From positions 7,033 through 71,032 of the forward strand of contig JAVCDD010000180.1 of the NCBI GenBank assembly GCA_030765125.1: a stretch of 64,000 bases of DNA. The letters run 5' to 3'. A program made the translations under genes and the position numbers. This stretch comes from Candidatus Hatepunaea meridiana. GTDB taxonomy: Bacteria; Electryoneota; AABM5-125-24; Hatepunaeales; Hatepunaeaceae. Positions within the stretch are counted from its first letter, which is position 1; each line of letters starts with the position of its first letter. Under the pieces are notes generated by a model. The model searched no databases. It was not told the DNA's origin and saw only the letters and a list, made by a program, of their open reading frames with translations. This document shows positions 47,601-50,094 of this stretch, one piece after another.

Positions 47601-50094
47601 CATCAGGATCGTTAGTAAAGAAGGTCATATCGGCTTCATAGTCGCCACCAATTAAATCTGTAGCGTCAAGTGTAACGTCGATTTCAATCGGATCGCCATC
47701 AACCGCGATGGTACCTTCGTCAGGCTCGTACATCAGCCAGTACATCTCAGCGACGCCGTCGTCTATGATTCGGATCTGAGTTGAAGGATACTGTGACAGC
47801 CAGAGGTTATGACCATCGTGTCCGATGCCGTCCCATTCCTGACCATTTTCAGCGGGCCATGAAACGATGTGCGCTACCTGCTCGATGTAAGTCCAATCAT
47901 CGACATCGACAGAAACCTGCCACAGTTCATTACCGTTACCGTTTCGTCTTGTGTTGAACCACATCTGTCCATCAGGATGTTTGTCCACCCAGCATATACT
48001 GCGCGACGGGAAGTTACCGGTATACTGAAAGTGACTCGGAATGACCGCAATTTGCTCGAGATCGTTCTCAATGTCGAACACTCGTATCTCACGGTTATTA
48101 GCGTCGTTCATCACAAACAGTAATCCTTCTTCATGGCTAACCGTGACCGCAGTCGGTCGGAAGTTAGTCTGGATATTACCGAGGTTTTCACCTTCAGTAT
48201 TATAGTGGTATAGCCAGTTGTTTGACCAGTGTACTATGTAAAGTTCACCGTCATAGCAGGCAGCGCCCATCGGGTTGTTCTGCACCCGGAACTCACGCTC
48301 TACTTCGTAGTCGTTAGCCGGATCGATAGCAGAAACCAGGAAATTCGGGCTGTAATTAGTCATCCACATCCACTCGTTGTCCCAGTCCCAGGCGATACCG
48401 GCATTATACCGGTTTACTGCACCAGCGTTGGGAGATTGGAATGCATGAATCAGATCACCGAGGTCATCGCGACGAGGACCTGCTTCATTGTCATTCCCTT
48501 GAAGAGGTGAATCCACGCTACGCAAGGTGCGTAAAGCATTATCGCGCTCTTCATCATCACCCGGCTCGGAGATAATTTCAGATTCAATAGTGAAGCGCAG
48601 CTCCGCATCACCATCGTTGGAAACGGTCAAGGTGTGTTCCTCGACTTCGTTCGATACGAGATCGTCTTCGATGGAACCGGGGTCAATCTCAATCGCCGGT
48701 GGCAGTGTGCCTTCGGCGTGAAGCGCAACCACGTATTCACCATTGCTTGGATCGTTCGAGACGAAGACCATCGTGGCATCGAAATCATCCGGATCGTCAT
48801 CAGCAGCGTTGAAGATGAAGGTTACATCTGCGCTTGCATCCGGCTCCAACATCAAATCTTCCGGATCGGCGGAGAAGTAATCGTGCTCACTGTAGATATC
48901 CTCAATGTCGAGGTCTTCTATACCGGTATTGGTGACCGTTACGGTCATCTCATAAGGACCTCCGACAAAGACGTCGTCATAAGCCAAGTTCCAGTCAACG
49001 ACGCATGCATCCGGGTCTTCCGGGTCAAAGCCGTGATCTTCCGACCACTCGACCACGATATTGGGGGCGGCTTGAACGGTTAAATCAACTGCTATTACGA
49101 TATCTTGATCCTCAGAAGTAAGGATGTGAACATCGGCGCGGTAGTTTCCACCAATCAGCCCATCGGCGTCAAGGGTTAAAACCATTACGCCCGCATCGTC
49201 ACCATCAATGGAGCCATCGGTAGGATCAACGGTGATCCATTGTGTCCAGGCGTTAGGACCACCGAATGCAATCACGCGACCGGGTACTGCATACTGGTTA
49301 TTCCTAGCGCTGATAAACCAACCGTGCCTGTCTGCGCCGCGGTTTACACCGATTTCACCGGTGTTCTGGTTTATAGCTTCACCATACTGCATAACTCCCA
49401 AACCACTGCCGTACAGCAGGAGCTGGAACTTGAAGCGATGATCACCATGCCATTCGATGACAGCTTCATCGTTCTGGTTAGTCCAGATGTAGACTTCCGT
49501 ACCGGCAGTGTTGTCATCGTTAAAGATTGAGACGGTGTTTCCACCTCTTGCGCCATCGGCTGCATTATATGGGAAATTAGCTGCGGTTACCATAATGTCT
49601 CGACCACCGTAGGTGAACGACATCCATCCATCGGAATCGGCGAATACGCGTGAATGCATACGATCCCAGAACGGGAATTCCCAGCCAAGGTCAACGGCGC
49701 CTGTGTTGGCGTCGTCACCAAGACGGAACTCGCGAACACCATCCAATTCGGGAGTATCTATCCACACGAATTCTGGTGCGCCATCCGCGTTGTCGTCCAT
49801 ATTATCACGCCACTCCCAACCCATATCATCGGGTTCACTGCGGCGGTCACGACGAGGACCGACTCGTTCTTCATCAGGCTCCGCGGTGACCTCGATATCG
49901 GTATCCCAATCAATCGCATCATCACCGAGGTTACTGATGGTTACATCGGTCGCCTCAATATCTCCAGTGTTTAACTCTGTTTCGATTTCCTGAGGGTCAA
50001 CCTCAACGTCGGCATAAGCAGCGGGCGCGAGCCACAGATAACCTGCAAATGCAAGGCAAATCGCTAACAGAAAACGAATACTGGTTCCTTTCAT
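35641..50094 (-). CDS. Giant (4817 aa) T9SS-secreted modular surface protein
   Basis: A complete ORF in the track. Shine-Dalgarno AGGAGG (plus-strand cctcct, 50100-50105) lies 5 nt upstream of the ATG. The signal peptide is MKGTSIRFLLAICLAFAGYLWLAPAAYA. Nine Arg-rich linkers separate super-modules of about 490 aa. The CTD, NYPNPFNAVTRINY...GIYIVRM...KVMLVK, spans 35644-35898. Confidence 0.9.
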   Translation of the reverse strand: MKGTSIRFLLAICLAFAGYLWLAPAAYADVEVDPQEIETELNTGDIEATDVTISNLGDDAIDWDTDIEVTAEPDEERVGPRRDRRSEPDDMGWEWRDNMDDNADGAPEFVWIDTPELDGVREFRLGDDANTGAVDLGWEFPFWDRMHSRVFADSDGWMSFTYGGRDIMVTAANFPYNAADGARGGNTVSIFNDDNTAGTEVYIWTNQNDEAVIEWHGDHRFKFQLLLYGSGLGVMQYGEAINQNTGEIGVNRGADRHGWFISARNNQYAVPGRVIAFGGPNAWTQWITVDPTDGSIDGDDAGVMVLTLDADGLIGGNYRADVHILTSEDQDIVIAVDLTVQAAPNIVVEWSEDHGFDPEDPDACVVDWNLAYDDVFVGGPYEMTVTVTNTGIEDLDIEDIYSEHDYFSADPEDLMLEPDASADVTFIFNAADDDPDDFDATMVFVSNDPSNGEYVVALHAEGTLPPAIEIDPGSIEDDLVSNEVEEHTLTVSNDGDAELRFTIESEIISEPGDDEERDNALRTLRSVDSPLQGNDNEAGPRRDDLGDLIHAFQSPNAGAVNRYNAGIAWDWDNEWMWMTNYSPNFLVSAIDPANDYEVEREFRVQNNPMGAACYDGELYIVHWSNNWLYHYNTEGENLGNIQTNFRPTAVTVSHEEGLLFVMNDANNREIRVFDIENDLEQIAVIPSHFQYTGNFPSRSICWVDKHPDGQMWFNTRRNGNGNELWQVSVDVDDWTYIEQVAHIVSWPAENGQEWDGIGHDGHNLWLSQYPSTQIRIIDDGVAEMYWLMYEPDEGTIAVDGDPIEIDVTLDATDLIGGDYEADMTFFTNDPDDDEVVISVIMHVTGVPALEVAWSEDHGFDPDNGDSVVDFNAAHEELYAGHDYPVTIELINPGTDDTEIESITCENQRFTCDPADAVIIGHSSLEVNFIFNSEDTDQHEAVMVIVWNDPADEPADIEINLVAQAFTPPAFELAPGSVEEDYFTGDIEEHVLTLSNTGGADLNWSIASEIIAEPGDDDRDNASRTLRSTARRADGPRRDPLEDNELDGLLFAAFQINSTWGWVDDGMRQDPLLNNDNYHSYRQAGDWDNVDFSEYDVIVVAARSSMNSQNYQNNFERLEEYVDGGGACYYETADANSPMHGPGDIVNNSAGGTSNGTLVVSPDPNDDNYSLFAEICHRSEPNYWEEGEIIEGGSWLHSGYLENQFVQKVEDGTLEWYQVIATKQNQDVPGAVAYGFGKGTVLTVGHPTGHCWFNYARNGGEWGSMASEILLYLTEMGGAKWLAYEPDEGTIEADDQAEVTVTLDCSGLFTGDYEADMTFTTNDPDNEELVFNIIMHVTGAPALGATWSADIGWDEDPEVAVIDWNLAYLNLFVDQTYDVLVEIENTGTDDLEIEDIYCENDLFTSDPVDASLEPGESDEFTFTFDASSGDAFEEAMVIVWNDPNEEDFEIALLADAGVPPEIAINPGSIEEDLYTGGLVDVELTVANEGEADLRFTVEHEIVAEPDRDANARSLRSTRNAEGPRRDDFMDVIATYRWARGAAGYKHSSNFDTDNEWMWVATYSPNWIAAISWDGDYENFTEEIAYQPQGQNVMDIAWMDGVVYNVAWSGAFVGRHDAEGENLGNLPMGFNSVTALAASPENGVLIAIEGTGAWGMHVVRPVNDNVERVATINWRQGPLVNQFSRGICWVDEHPDGQLWINTQSRLMEVSIDTDDWSFVEVVQNTAWNNGNDQWSDPGHDGENLWLGVRVVQEFQIVDDGIAETNWLAYDPVEGTVAGDDAMIVTVTLDGAGLAEGDYEADLTFLSNDPNEEEGVVINIQLHLTAASDIEVEWSEDFGYPDVLNWNPAYEDVFAGGPYTMVVQVSNEGTADLDIEDIFCDNEYFTVDQGDMLLEPDASANLTITFEAEADDPGEYEEVMTFVCDDPDEENFELPMHVICELPPIIRIVPGSIETDLFTGGFEEHDLVVENSGDAELRFTTDIEIIVEPGDDRDNASRTLRSTRRADGPRRDRRGGPDDMGYEWRDNLEDDGPEYEWIDIREFEGVREFVMGDDAITGAVELGWDFPFYVENFNRIFIDTDGWAGFVRSAQSINTPRPFPQNQAGWFYTLAILNGDWHGSGGGGPLYTWTNERDLMVITYHNWNSRGGIGGCFQIILNDAGMITFQYGDRINDIPRWWQASHTGINGAFIDNNMYGFSMVNYGQGQDYIVEGRAIGCGPAGAWTRWVSVDPAEGAVEGDDEMTVTVFLDAAGLIEGDWEADIHFLSNDPASPDEAVNVLLHVTGAPDIEVTWDEAYGYIDPIEDQNNESVVDWNLMYEDLFTGGPYEMTVILANLGTADLDVEDIFCDHDYFSVEPQEAFLEWEDGEDVVVTITFDADVDDPNDFEAELVFISNDPDEDELIVNLHAEASLPPVFELSVDGDQIDIDNEDAVINDDLVTGEQAEHAMEIYNAGDALLRWRLEAEIIRQPGDEEERDNASRTLRSTKSVTSPRRDNPGDRLEDLDFNHPIPANQYKNGCYDPDNEWFWFQQYNNPYLMAAIDPSDGEEMVRFNTGLNPMDLAYYDGVIYIMYLWVPTLNRYDIEGNNLGALALQGHRGINGVATDQEEGLIYAVEGSGAPFNLSVFNLEGERIGQIGNIQPFVNNQLFRSIEFVALHPDGELWVNTRDRAWQIDIDTDNFEFVGNQAVVNFPTRSNNEYAVIAHDGENLYVSCHADSRLYCYDDGVSEVRWLDYGVGEEEMVKEGTVEADDIEEIIVLLNADGLIGGMYVAEMYFTTNDPAHRNVTVTVNLDVTGVPDFAIEWGPGFDPDDIPNSVVDFNVEFNPNLFNGGADDRYQIPVTIINVGTDDLIIDEIIVDTEGDVEVFFVDPADFVDDNAIIAAQEGIITVSFMAEEAGEYIGTVTLSTNDPDLEEFIFDLSADCQDPPMISLDPGEIEREMDTGDEEELTINVANIGRADLHFTTEAEMIQEGPEEERDNASRTLRSTRSATGPRRDEPGDLIAQFNGINVVNHYSSCVGWDWDNERMWVSNYNNQRAAAYSHDANYENFNEEISIATGGSCMDGCWLNGHLWIGNWSNAQVRRYDGDGQLVGTHNFPFVAYGLAADVEESLIFVMQNAAPNSIHVYEVDGLDVGEEIGVIANHQAFHGNVVTFALEWVPAHVDAPLWMTDAAQNNVYQIGVDRDDWTCVEVDDVVSFQVNNGQPYCAVGHDGEYIWCSGYQQANIRVYDDGVDEVRWFSYDPKESPEDGLGADEEMDIFITINTFGLYSGEYEVNLHFLSNDPANQDAVVNILIHVSGAPGINVIWPEEWGYIPDDPDDHGIVDWNAAYSESEDHFWPEILYADGDYDLEIVVQNVGTEDLEIEGCEIDHEFFEVDHADFVIGPGEEEVVTLTFMPGETGEFTPDLIIFNNDEDDAEYAVSLVAQAFSPPMFSVAPQSIDTEVPNGQEEIHNLNVANEAGDDGAQLHFETEIEIISEPERDNNARTLNAVGSVGARRDPLEDDELDGLLFAAFQTSTTWGWVDDGMRRDPLLNNDNYHSYRQAADWDNVEFEDYDVIVIAARSTMNSQNYQNNFERLEEYVADGGACYYETADANSPMHGPGDIVNNSAGGTSNGTLVVSPDPNDDNYSLFAEICHRSEPNYWEEGELIEGGSWLHSGYLENQFVQKVDDGTLEWYQVIATKQNQDVPGAVAYGFGKGTVLTVGHSTGHCWFNYARNGGEWGSIASELLLYLTEMGGAKWITLDPDTSPWDPDRPNDSGIDPGADMDVFVTLNTEGLIEFTYEADIIFITNDPENDEFVVNVIADVIGVPIWDEEYEPIAQPFENAQDIEFEDTYVNGDSEISITVVNCGSTDLIIDGVEFTGDAADDYSTDIDDQAVLDPEQELAFTLTFSPSQTGVREATFSIFSDAENQDIGDDDRIWWDLIGVGELAPIASTDPETDPDNPTEIIVQMLMGDDPVEEIIVLANEEGERRDLHFEIEIEDIEEEERDDAVRSLRSTKRAIGPRRDQPEGRGILIAERCGWSNWDFERYFQAIDDLDYDRYRTWNQVQDVDFTEYDFMWIGNYEADAWVAQYNQNLERIEEFVDGGGALYHSSGTNNHNTRPTNPGGLVYNGSQSQNQCPLQLDPEENFLINYMNENDPFNWEWGEGQRLVGGGCAHGVFLQRDIDNMDNVEWVQIMAMGNPTNEPIILTYQYGRGFCLVSTTVDGYLHNVPANYHWGRTGEAVIWYLDHLANVSTWVTAEPDEGDVHAGESTEIILTFDPADLEDWIDYHATVTILTNDPENAEIVFDVELQLGARIQHFAEFETTNLMHYLSILDVAFDEEPVPNGWEIAAYTDDDVLAGGVVWRGEGSVLIAYGAADDVEGFENGDNINYRAWDPDADEELLATAEIEDNAGPRVWVNNGETIVTCVTAYQLREQTILHLEGWNMISLNIIPIADYWENLDDDDGPDVELMLEQYKDEDDNHHVVIMKDEAGDFCVPDWDFYGIDFWNTAEGYLMNVNEELEASWLGVPIHPQTVVAGVDAGWNIVAYYPTYDLEASRGSGFHVVSSIVDNVIIAKDGPGGFMVPSYGFSNMEPWTPGQGYQINVDEDVELLYPEDEDQGAALMSASEAGSHWASPVKTDVNMSVLVTSIIGTPVEDGDQIAAFDASGKLIGVGTISDEMCGLPIWGDSEHTKNVVDGLQEDEAFTLRMWNNANETEVNLKASIKSGKGLVYLTNALTIIDVRVDAGIPDEYSLSQNYPNPFNAVTRINYGLPEAAKVTINVFDVTGRLVTTLINNELKAGRYTAVWDGAGMTSGIYIVRMEAANFKSVRKVMLVK
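38885..39625 (-). repeat. Copy 1 of a near-identical ~740-bp internal duplication (payload C domain)
   Basis: It matches 46253-46993, offset exactly 7368 bp. By eye there are about 8 differences across the central ~440 nt, and the flanks are more diverged. It encodes LDGLLFAAFQ...YDVIV(I/V)AARS...LEEYV(A)DGGACYYE...GKGTVLTVGH. Confidence 0.85.
46253..46993 (-). repeat. Copy 2 of the near-identical ~740-bp internal duplication
   Basis: See 38885-39625. The shadow ORFs 39102..39386 and 46470..46754 are nearly identical in translation. Confidence 0.85.
48486..48515 (-). repeat. Degenerate copy of the GTCATTCCCGCGAAGGCGGGAATCC element, in frame in linker 2 of the 4817-aa gene
   Basis: cattgtcattcccttgaagaggtgaatcca aligns with cattttgtcattcccgcgaaggcgggaatcca at 34619-34650 at roughly 25 of 30 positions. 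The 13-mer ttgtcattccctt is identical to 50650-50662. It codes the extra residues VDSPLQGNDNEA between RTLRS and GPRRD. Confidence 0.6.

What the first reader, a model, noticed from the sequence alone, without database searches (positions are those of the whole stretch)
48474..48557. Linker 2 of the 4817-aa gene contains a translated remnant of the GTCATTCCC..GGGAATCC element in the variable slot
Other linkers read RTLRS-T(A/R)RRAD-GPRRD. Linker 2 reads RTLRS-VDSPLQGNDNEA-GPRRD. The extra DNA, cattgtcattcccttgaagaggtgaatcca (48486-48515), aligns with the terminal repeat of the MITE-like element at 34617 (about 25/30). It also shares an exact 13-mer with the end of the composite element at 50649.

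This is the same slot that holds the family A palindrome in ORF1, so two unrelated element families use one junction position in two different genes.
Basis: seen in the sequence. Interest (0 to 1): 0.7.

Follow-up and report, generated by a model that had tools for sequence, protein, structure and literature searches.

The report
Decayed hairpin repeat translated inside protein linker
One linker of a 4817-residue surface protein carries, in frame, a worn-down copy of a hairpin DNA repeat that normally sits between genes, and the same linker position holds similar repeats in related giant proteins from other uncultured bacteria.

Summary
Linker 2 of the 4817-aa gene (35641-50094, minus strand) has a 12-residue slot, VDSPLQGNDNEA (48481-48516). 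The eight paralogous linkers and all distant homologues have 2-8 residues there. An unbiased scan of this 36-nt slot against the whole window gave four best non-self hits, and they are the four termini of the two GTCATTCCC elements. The slot scored 18; 12,630 other 36-mers reached at most 13.

The source element can be named. The arms of the 34616-34715 element match the published Neisseria NTS / Ssn-related motif (SRM) at 27 of 28 positions. That motif is the hairpin target of GIY-YIG single-strand nucleases. The linker copy matches at 21 of 28, fails the SRM pattern at two positions and no longer folds.

Best explanation: an SRM hairpin entered the slot in an open frame (canonical DSRLRGNDK, here DSPLQGNDN), was tolerated in a probably disordered linker, and then decayed.

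The same R.LR.-slot-PRRD position carries in-frame hairpin repeats elsewhere: ORF1 of this window and four loci from other metagenomes, two of them with SRM copies.

This resembles Rickettsia palindromic elements, in a new phylum (Candidatus Hatepunaea meridiana, Electryoneota). No close orthologue exists to date the insertion. Whether the slot is targeted or merely tolerant is open.

The parts
35641..50094 (-). Giant modular gene, 4817 aa. It has a signal peptide, repeated Ig-like (HYDIN/VesB-type) domains, beta-propeller and other globular modules, and a T9SS C-terminal sorting domain.
   Evidence: ORF list and translation. Pfam: PF22544 E 7e-68; PF18962 Por_Secre_tail at 4739-4814.
48466..48531 (-). 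Linker 2 core: RTLRS - slot - GPRRD.
   Evidence: Six-frame motif search and codon listing. AlphaFold pLDDT is 30-39 over this stretch against about 90 in the following propeller.
48481..48516 (-). Variable slot of linker 2, VDSPLQGNDNEA (12 aa). It is 18-24 nt longer than in the other linkers.
   Evidence: DNA alignment A5; protein alignments A1 and A3.
48488..48515 (+). Decayed NTS/SRM-type hairpin unit, TTGTCATTCCCTTGAAGAGGTGAATCCA. The NTS sense is on the + strand, so the gene reads its reverse complement in the frame that gives DSPLQGND.
   Evidence: 23/28 identical to 34623-34650. The published 28-nt NTS frame lies one base along, at 48489-48516, and matches the consensus at 21/28. Top hits of an unbiased scan. 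The hairpin is lost: DNA fold -2.8 kcal/mol, z -0.39.
34616..34715 (.). Intact intergenic element made of two inverted NTS/SRM hairpins (REPIN-like doublet). The arms are 34624-34651 (+) and 34679-34707 (-).
   Evidence: 29-nt arms, 97% complementary. The whole element folds at -46.8 kcal/mol, z -14.8. The published SRM pattern matches exactly these two sites in the window; the + arm is 27/28 to the NTS consensus.
50649..50939 (.). Composite intergenic element. Its 25-nt terminal inverted repeats begin with the SRM 5' half (TTTTGTCATTCCCTT) and enclose other nested palindromes.
   Evidence: Inverted repeats I11, I1 and I18. Exact 13-mer at 50651-50663 and exact 16-mer at 50922-50937 shared with linker 2.
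3..19904 (-). ORF1: a giant open frame of more than 6634 aa that runs off the left end of the window. Its last cadherin-like repeats carry three R.L..-slot-PRRD cassettes.
   Evidence: Stop-free stretch; translation.
2511..2600 (-). Intact palindromic element translated in frame in an ORF1 slot (EIGGQYTYF...EIGILSPYF), ending 10 nt upstream of the PPRRD codons.
   Evidence: 27-nt arms, 100% complementary. 88% identical over 89 nt to the intergenic copy.
23858..23944 (.). Intergenic copy of the ORF1 slot palindrome.
46981..47028 (-). Linker 3 (RTLRS-TARRAD-GPRRD), an example of an uninterrupted paralogous linker. The others are at 45520-45564, 44068-44112, 42622-42666, 41119-41163, 39613-39654 and 38083-38127.

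Best explanation
The extra DNA in linker 2 is a degraded copy of a hairpin repeat of the NTS/SRM family. Intact copies of that family form the arms of the intergenic element at 34616-34715.

Shown:
- The sequence relationship, and the fact that the insert is specific to linker 2.
- The reading frame.
- The loss of the hairpin.

Inferred history:
- One hairpin unit of about 28-32 nt entered the variable slot between RTLRS and GPRRD. It may have come alone or as part of a doublet that later lost an arm.
- It entered in the orientation and frame that read DSRLRGNDK in the canonical element. This is one of the two stop-free frames on that strand.
- It replaced about 6-9 nt of the old slot. The ancestral state resembled VD-G(E/S)-(EA), as in homologues L001 and L002. 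The net gain was 6-7 residues.
- The linker is probably flexible, so the protein tolerated the insertion.
- The copy has since accumulated substitutions: 7 of 28 positions against the NTS consensus, 5 against the local arm. It no longer folds and no longer fits the SRM pattern.

Today it most likely does nothing beyond lengthening a spacer.

The slot collects such repeats recurrently. In-frame insertions elsewhere in these multi-domain proteins would break folded domains and be lost. The way the unit got in (transposition-like insertion, template switching or illegitimate recombination) is not known.
For: Similarity and specificity:
- The similarity is far above controls, and the four best-scoring non-self hits in the window are all element termini; three of them exceed every other site.
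- The insert occurs only in linker 2 among nine junctions.
- Slots are short in all homologues at the equivalent junction: L001 VDGEEA, L002 VDGS, L004, L006, L007, L008, L013 and P0052, all 2-8 aa.

Identity of the source element:
- The arm at 34624-34651 is 27/28 to the NTS consensus CGTCATTCCCGCGMAVGCGGGAATCYRG.
- Both arms match the published SRM pattern, and nothing else in the window does (motif from PMC11893778).

Frame:
- The canonical reverse strand reads DSRLRGNDK in one frame, WIPAFAGMTK in another, and has a TGA stop in the third.
- The window uses the DSR frame.

Independent cases of the same family in the same linker type:
- L015 5676-5703 is 25/28 to the window arm and reads IHAFAGMTK.
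- L016 4945-4972 is an intact variant hairpin ATCCCCGC/GCGGGGAT and reads DPRLRGDDI.
- None of these uses the closed frame.

Other hairpin families in the slot:
- Window 2511-2600.
- L010 4256-4315, which matches window intergenic 62321-62445.
- L017, with 30-nt perfect arms.
- L003, where the insert brings a stop codon and splits the gene call.

Structure:
- The linker has pLDDT 30-39 and no secondary structure.
- The hairpin is lost in linker 2: -2.8 kcal/mol, z -0.39, against -8.9 kcal/mol, z -3.65 for the intact arm.
Against: - No close orthologue exists in any collection searched; the best identity is 45-53%. The empty ancestral site is therefore inferred from distant homologues and paralogues, not observed.
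- The match (28 nt) is longer than the net length gain (18-21 nt).
- Part of the match (GTGGAT, VD) is shared with homologues that lack the repeat. A few matching bases may therefore be ancestral or reflect microhomology.
- No target-site duplication or second arm is visible.
- Low pLDDT from an 8-sequence alignment is only suggestive of disorder.
- Some long slots in homologues share a conserved peptide (D[PS]VWN[EH]GY). Not every long slot is a repeat insertion.
Confidence: 0.8

Rival explanations
1. The slot is an active target or recombination junction, not only a tolerant site. Hairpin repeats, some recognised by an Ssn-type single-strand nuclease, are drawn to the R.LR.-slot-PRRD junction or are by-products of breakage and rejoining there. 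They take part in shuffling whole modules between and within giant genes.
For: - At least five repeat families occupy this one junction type in five genomes.
- In about 69 kb of giant-gene coding DNA, the only long perfect inverted repeats lie in these linkers, and so do all three intragenic NTS-like hits.
- A 735-nt tract of about 94% identity (46255-46989 against 38885-39621) starts exactly at the RRD codons. Identity is only 10/30 in the slot just upstream.
- In Neisseria, dRS3/NTS repeats sit next to variable genes and have been proposed as recombination substrates (PMC11893778).
Against: - Insertion points inside the linker are not fixed. L016 copy 1 lies upstream of RALRG, and the others lie 6-39 nt from either anchor.
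- Unrelated families are unlikely to share one target sequence.
- The right end of the duplicated tract is a domain edge, not a slot, so domain-level selection alone can explain both boundaries.
- No GIY-YIG-like motif was found in the window (a weak test).
- The linker 2 copy is decayed and inert.
Confidence: 0.15
2. Chance or convergent similarity. The 12-residue slot arose by ordinary indels or by selection on the peptide, and only happens to resemble the repeat.
For: - The segment is short.
- It has 7 mismatches to the NTS consensus.
- It fails the SRM pattern and does not fold.
Against: - Score 18 against a maximum of 13 in 12,630 control windows, and a maximum of 11 with gapped alignment.
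- An exact 16-mer is shared with an element terminus.
- About one site with 8 or fewer mismatches is expected per 202 kb, yet all three intragenic hits with 7 or fewer fall in the same linker type.
Confidence: 0.03
3. Assembly artefact. The metagenome assembler joined reads through a repeat and created a chimeric linker.
For: - The source is a metagenome-assembled genome.
- The gene has near-identical internal modules.
Against: - The copy is diverged from every other copy in the window, so reads would not cross-assemble.
- The frame is intact across 4817 codons.
- Independent assemblies of other organisms show the same phenomenon.
Confidence: 0.02

Closest known systems
Rickettsia palindromic elements (RPEs): selfish palindromic DNA inserted in frame in protein-coding genes (Ogata et al. 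2000, as summarised in PMC10969869)
   Same: - Short palindromic repeats also found between genes are inserted into ORFs in a stop-free frame and translated as extra peptide.
- The insertions sit where the fold tolerates them.
- Several repeat families are involved.
- Copies decay afterwards.
   Different: - The host is a free-living candidate phylum (Electryoneota), not an obligate intracellular alphaproteobacterium.
- The linker 2 unit is about 28 nt, against about 150 nt for RPEs.
- Insertions concentrate in one conserved linker cassette of giant secreted proteins, rather than being scattered over unrelated metabolic genes.
- Homology to RPE sequences was not tested.
NTS / dRS3 / Ssn-related motif (SRM) hairpin repeats, targets of the GIY-YIG single-strand nuclease SsnA (PMC11893778)
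   Same: - The intergenic arms at 34624-34651 and 34679-34707 fit the published SRM pattern.
- The first arm matches the Neisseria NTS consensus at 27/28, including the dRS3 core ATTCCC-N8-GGGAAT and the oriented GTCAT flank.
- Related genomes show SRM arrays with compensatory stem variants (L016 614-1002).
   Different: - The described repeats are presented as intergenic and as flanking ssnA. Here copies are translated inside ORFs.
- The linker 2 copy fails the pattern at two positions and does not fold.
- No ssnA-like gene was seen in the 64-kb window.
- Genome-wide copy number is unknown.
REP/REPIN and BIME elements mobilised by RAYT (IS200/IS605-like) transposases
   Same: - The 34616-34715 element is a doublet of two inverted hairpin units, like a REPIN.
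- The linker copy is a singlet, like the decayed REP singlets left by REPINs.
- Nested mosaics of several palindrome families fill the intergenic regions of the window.
   Different: - No RAYT gene was found here.
- The hairpin sequence belongs to the SRM class, which is linked to a GIY-YIG nuclease, not to a tyrosine transposase.
- REPs are defined as extragenic.

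Membership tests
NTS/SRM hairpin repeats (PMC11893778) | Match to the degenerate SRM search pattern HGTCWYN(0-2)YYVSBRHN(0-5)WNVSBRGN(0-2)RNCYNB | tested here: not met
   For the linker 2 copy, two positions fail (T where S is required, T where R is required), so it is a remnant and not a member by pattern. The source arms at 34624-34651 and 34679-34707 do match, and they are the only matches in the window.
NTS/SRM hairpin repeats (PMC11893778) | Hairpin-forming semi-palindrome (dRS3 core ATTCCC-N8-GGGAAT) | tested here: not met
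   Linker 2 has ATTCCC-N8-GTGAAT and folds at -2.8 kcal/mol, z -0.39. The intact arm folds at -8.9 kcal/mol, z -3.65.
NTS/SRM hairpin repeats (PMC11893778) | Conserved oriented 5' flank (C/T)GTCAT upstream of the stem | tested here: met
   TTGTCATTCCC is exact in linker 2 and in all four element termini.
NTS/SRM hairpin repeats (PMC11893778) | High copy number in the genome and association with an ssnA (GIY-YIG cd10448) gene | not testable with these tools
   Only 64 kb of the genome is available. It holds 2 intact arms, 2 half-site termini and 1 remnant. A motif search for GIY...YIG in six frames found nothing (a weak test).
In-frame palindromic element insertions of the RPE type | The same repeat family is present both in intergenic DNA and inside an ORF | tested here: met
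   Linker 2 against 34616-34715 and 50649-50939. ORF1 2511-2600 against 23858-23944.
In-frame palindromic element insertions of the RPE type | The insert keeps the host reading frame open and is absent from homologues | tested here: met
   The 4817-codon ORF is intact. The insert is absent from 8 paralogous linkers and from all recovered homologues. Caveat: only homologues of 53% identity or less are available.
In-frame palindromic element insertions of the RPE type | The insert lies at a structurally permissive (surface or disordered) position | tested here: inconclusive
   pLDDT is 30-39 with no secondary structure over the linker, but the model rests on an 8-sequence alignment.
In-frame palindromic element insertions of the RPE type | Sequence homology to the described Rickettsia RPE families | not tested
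   Terminal inverted repeats are present. No target-site duplication is evident at 34616/34715 or 50649/50939 on inspection. There is no transposase in the window.

The most novel reading that the evidence does not exclude
The conserved R.LR.-slot-PRRD cassette may be a dedicated DNA exchange junction of giant T9SS surface proteins in Electryoneota and their relatives. On this reading, hairpin repeats landing there, including SRM hairpins cut by Ssn single-strand nucleases, create or mark break points. Whole modules are then duplicated, converted or swapped at those points. This would be an intragenic counterpart of the dRS3/NTS-flanked variable regions of Neisseria. The translated hairpin remnants would be scars of that process.
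Probability: 0.12. Interest if true: 0.8.

Novelty: new member of a known kind. Interest (0 to 1): 0.45.

Why it matters
- It extends translated selfish palindromes beyond Rickettsia-type symbionts to a free-living candidate phylum.
- It ties the phenomenon to a hairpin family, NTS/SRM, whose cognate nuclease was characterised only in 2025.
- The recurrence of several repeat families at one conserved linker position gives a natural test bed. That position is also the left edge of a recent module duplication. One can ask whether hairpin repeats merely survive in permissive linkers or help to shuffle domains in giant modular proteins.
- On the practical side, peptides such as DSRLRGND, IPAFAGMT and VIPAKAGIQ inside linkers flag repeat-derived sequence. 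Annotators and structure predictors should not read them as protein motifs.

Tried and rejected
- An exact look-up of the 4817-aa protein found nothing on record.
- Two word-indexed protein searches gave only 4-5 distant hits.
- One genome scan and one metagenome scan gave 10 loci, none above 53% identity.
- The exhaustive HMM search gave many giant homologues, but the best module identity is 45%. The decisive comparison with a close orthologue could therefore not be made.
- The first attempt at a locus search with alignment A1 failed because the columns were too divergent.
- GTCATTCCC is absent from the first 13 loci fetched.
- A possible third SRM remnant in ORF1 slot 3 (about 1060-1085, CATTCCCGCTTGCGGAAA) scored 10. 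That is within the top 1% of the null but not beyond it, so it was not claimed.
- I considered that the whole RDNASRTLRS linker derives from the GCGCGCACTCTGAACTC palindrome family, which translates to RTLNS at 50671 and 50742. The nucleotide match is only about 12/18, which Arg/Leu codon choice explains, so I dropped it.
- The small GCGCA-CCC-TGCGC hairpin in the RTLR codons is not better than shuffles.
- Rfam has no family match in the window.
- Two literature searches for prior descriptions of linker-specific repeat insertion returned nothing relevant.
- P0033 could not be traced to DNA.

Full report
**What is there**

The window comes from a metagenome-assembled genome of Candidatus Hatepunaea meridiana (phylum Candidatus Electryoneota, FCB group), a species described from Ace Lake, Antarctica. 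Five window proteins are identical to NCBI entries named for that organism, between MDP8239316 and MDP8239328.

The gene at 35641-50094 on the minus strand encodes 4817 residues. It has a signal peptide, many HYDIN/VesB-type Ig-like domains, propeller and other globular modules, and a type IX secretion C-terminal sorting domain.

Its modules are joined by a conserved linker: (E)RDNA.R(T/S)L(R/N)(S/A), then a short variable slot, then (G/S/A)(P/A)RRD. The motif occurs eight times in full and once in a reduced N-terminal form.

**Checking the observation**

- Linker 2 reads RTLRS-VDSPLQGNDNEA-GPRRD, with the slot at 48481-48516.
- The other slots are 5-6 residues: TARRAD, TRNAE, TRRAD, TKSVTS, TRSAT, VGSVGA, TKRAI.
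- A nucleotide alignment of the eight full linkers and two homologues shows a surplus of 18-24 nt only in linker 2.
- The quoted 30-mer is 23/30 identical to 34621-34650, not about 25/30.
- The exact 13-mer with 50651-50663 is real. An exact 16-mer, TTGTCATTCCCTTGAA, is shared with the other terminus of that element (50922-50937, minus strand).

**Is it more than chance?**

- TTGTCATTCCC occurs exactly five times in the window. Four are the element termini and the fifth is linker 2.
- I scanned the 36-nt slot without prior assumptions against both strands of the whole window. The four best non-self hits are precisely the four termini, with scores 18, 16, 16 and 13. The best hit anywhere else also scores 13, so three termini stand clear of background.
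- In the converse test, 12,630 other 36-nt windows scored against the termini reach at most 13.
- With gapped alignment the rest of the window reaches 11, against 18 for the slot.
- The similarity is therefore real.

**What the source element is**

- The arms of the 100-nt intergenic element at 34616-34715 read TGTCATTCCCGCGAAGGCGGGAATCCAG.
- This matches the Neisseria Transformation Sequence consensus CGTCATTCCCGCGMAVGCGGGAATCYRG at 27 of 28 positions. It contains the dRS3 core ATTCCC-N8-GGGAAT.
- The published degenerate Ssn-related motif (SRM) matches exactly two sites in the window, and they are the two arms (motifs from PMC11893778).
- That paper shows the hairpins are bound, and single-stranded DNA next to them is cut, by small GIY-YIG nucleases (SsnA). 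It also reports that the repeats are widespread across phyla.
- The element is thus a doublet of two inverted SRM hairpins, which folds at -46.8 kcal/mol.
- The 291-nt composite element at 50649-50939 has terminal repeats that begin with the 5' half of the same unit.
- The linker 2 copy matches the NTS consensus at 21/28 and fails the SRM pattern at two positions. It no longer folds: -2.8 kcal/mol, z -0.39, against -8.9 kcal/mol, z -3.65 for an intact arm.
- It is a decayed singlet.

**Frame**

On the strand the gene reads, the canonical unit translates as DSRLRGNDK in one frame and WIPAFAGMTK in another. The third frame has a TGA stop. Linker 2 reads DSPLQGNDN, which is the first of these frames with three residues changed.

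**Is the insert specific to linker 2?**

No close orthologue exists. The exact protein is not on record. The best homologues from two protein searches, one genome scan, one metagenome scan and an exhaustive profile search are 45-53% identical.

All homologues aligned at the junction before the same propeller type have short slots:
- L001/L009: VDGEEA.
- L002: VDGS.
- L004: VGQA.
- L006: VRNA.
- L007: IN.
- L008: TDDGDI.
- L013: TDRAV.
- P0052: SVGNQNG.

L001 and L002 share the flanking VD, and L001 also shares the EA, with linker 2. This suggests an ancestral VD-G(E/S)-(EA) into which about 24 nt entered while about 6 nt were lost. The empty site is inferred, not observed.

**The same slot elsewhere**

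ORF1 is the minus-strand frame 3-19904, more than 6634 aa, and runs off the window. Its last cadherin-like repeats contain three R.L..-slot-(P/S)PRRD cassettes. One cassette holds an intact palindrome with 27-nt perfect arms at 2511-2600. It ends 10 nt before the PRRD codons and is 88% identical over 89 nt to intergenic 23858-23944.

In homologous giant genes from other assemblies:
- **L010** 4256-4315 carries an in-frame 60-nt palindrome. Its arm is 20/21 identical to the window's intergenic palindrome at 62321-62445.
- **L017** carries an 83-nt element with 30-nt perfect arms, 35 nt before PRRD.
- **L003** carries an insert of about 130 nt with hairpins that introduces a stop. The gene is called as two ORFs.
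- **L015** 5676-5703 carries an SRM copy 25/28 identical to the window arm. It is read in the other open frame, IHAFAGMTK.
- **L016** carries an intact variant SRM hairpin (ATCCCCGC/GCGGGGAT) reading DPRLRGDDI, followed by two more half-sites. Two further SRM-like remnants sit in other slots. An array of eight SRMs lies 500 nt upstream of the gene.

All three intragenic sites with 7 or fewer mismatches lie in this linker type.

In 153 family members, 116 linkers were recognised by pattern. The modal slot is 6 residues (44 of 116). Ninety-six slots are 11 residues or fewer, and 20 are 14-53 residues. Not all long slots are repeats. Three share a conserved peptide, D[PS]VWN[EH]GY.

**How it most likely works**

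Shown:
- The relationship to the SRM family.
- The specificity to linker 2.
- The use of an open frame.
- The loss of the hairpin.
- The recurrence of hairpin repeats at this junction.

Inferred:
- An SRM unit entered the slot.
- It was retained because the linker tolerates extra residues. AlphaFold gives pLDDT 30-39 and no secondary structure over the linker, against about 90 in the adjoining propeller (shallow alignment).
- It has since decayed to an inert 6-7 residue extension.
- Insertions that bring a stop split the gene, as in L003. Insertions into folded domains are presumably lost.
- The entry mechanism is unknown. The four bases GGAT shared between the repeat end and the ancestral VD codons would fit microhomology-guided joining, but this is speculation.

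**The main rival for why this slot is used**

The slot could be an active junction rather than only a tolerant one. Two observations favour this:
- In about 69 kb of giant-gene coding DNA, long perfect inverted repeats occur only in these linkers.
- A 735-nt tract of about 94% identity between the modules after linkers 3 and 8 (46255-46989 against 38885-39621) begins exactly at the RRD codons. Identity is only 10/30 in the slot immediately upstream.

Three observations count against it:
- Insertion points within the linker vary.
- Unrelated repeat families are unlikely to share a target.
- The other end of the duplicated tract is an ordinary domain edge.

I put this reading at about 0.15. Chance (0.03) and assembly artefact (0.02) are nearly excluded.

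**Comparison with what is known**

- The closest precedent is the Rickettsia palindromic elements, which insert in frame in protein-coding genes at structurally permissive positions (summarised in PMC10969869).
- The present case works the same way. It differs in host lineage, repeat family and unit size, and in being concentrated at one conserved linker of giant secreted proteins.
- The repeat family is the NTS/SRM class of PMC11893778. The intergenic arms qualify as members by the published pattern, and the linker copy is only a remnant.
- The doublet architecture resembles REPINs, but no RAYT or Ssn gene is present in the window.
- I found no paper in the library describing hairpin repeats recurrently translated in a specific linker of T9SS giant proteins. 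That is a limited search.

**Verdict**

- On its own, the linker 2 remnant is a new member of a known kind. It is interesting mainly because it opens onto a recurrent, slot-specific pattern that spans several genomes and several repeat families.

Noticed in passing
window 46255-46989 and 38885-39621 (minus strand): The globular domains after linkers 3 and 8 are about 94% identical at DNA level over about 735 nt. Identity starts exactly at the RRD codons, drops to 10/30 in the slot just upstream, and ends at the GGAKW codons. This is a recent domain duplication or conversion with its left edge at the slot.
   Followed up: partly
window 6782-6808 and 11371-11398 (ORF1); intergenic 35285-35363 and 56610-56635: A 26-nt hairpin, GGTAGGACAGACATTCCTGTCTGTC, is 92-96% identical between two ORF1 coding sites and intergenic copies. 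In ORF1 it encodes PVGQTFLSV inside an Ig-like strand, not in a linker. The direction of transfer is unclear.
   Followed up: partly
window 1033-1057 and 1820-1858 (ORF1 slots 2 and 3): Two other ORF1 slots share a heptamer-based repeat, ACATTCAACATTCAAAAT, translated as NIQHSKF / IQHSKSKIQ. There are 6 matches against 0.16 expected, and no intergenic copy in the window.
   Followed up: partly
window 62249-62526; also 50130-50230, 25703-25840, 63802-63891, 35567-35633: Intergenic regions are packed with nested palindromes of several families, forming mosaic, BIME/NIME-like structures. The ACCGGAGTAGCGCAGCTTGCTGCGCG family at 62321-62445 reappears in frame in a linker slot of a homologue with 35% protein identity (L010).
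   Followed up: partly
L003 2136-2300 (ERZ24794672 NODE_11691): In a homologous gene, a hairpin-bearing insert of about 130 nt in the same slot introduces a stop codon. The gene is called as two overlapping ORFs (512-2185 and 2136-3752). Either it is a pseudogene or the protein has been split at the linker.
   Followed up: partly
L016 614-1002 (JGI 3300033153 Ga0366824_1007645): An array of five tandem SRM hairpins (63-nt period) plus three inverted ones lies 500 nt upstream of a 5398-aa homologue whose own linkers carry SRM copies. The stems vary by compensatory changes: ATTCCTGC/GCAGGAAT and ATACCTGC/GCGGGTAT.
   Followed up: no
proteins P0023, P0064, P0104 (family members): Several 40-48 residue slots share a conserved peptide, D[PS]VWN[EH]GY...PRRD(D/P)PP. 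This suggests a distinct, conserved linker insert that is not obviously repeat-derived.
   Followed up: no
window, all nine junctions of the 4817-aa gene, and 116 linkers in 153 homologues: The linker motif ERD..R.(L/V)R(S/R)-slot-GPRRD is conserved across a large family of giant T9SS proteins (2579 profile hits), yet it has no Pfam model or known function. It might be a processing site.
   Followed up: no
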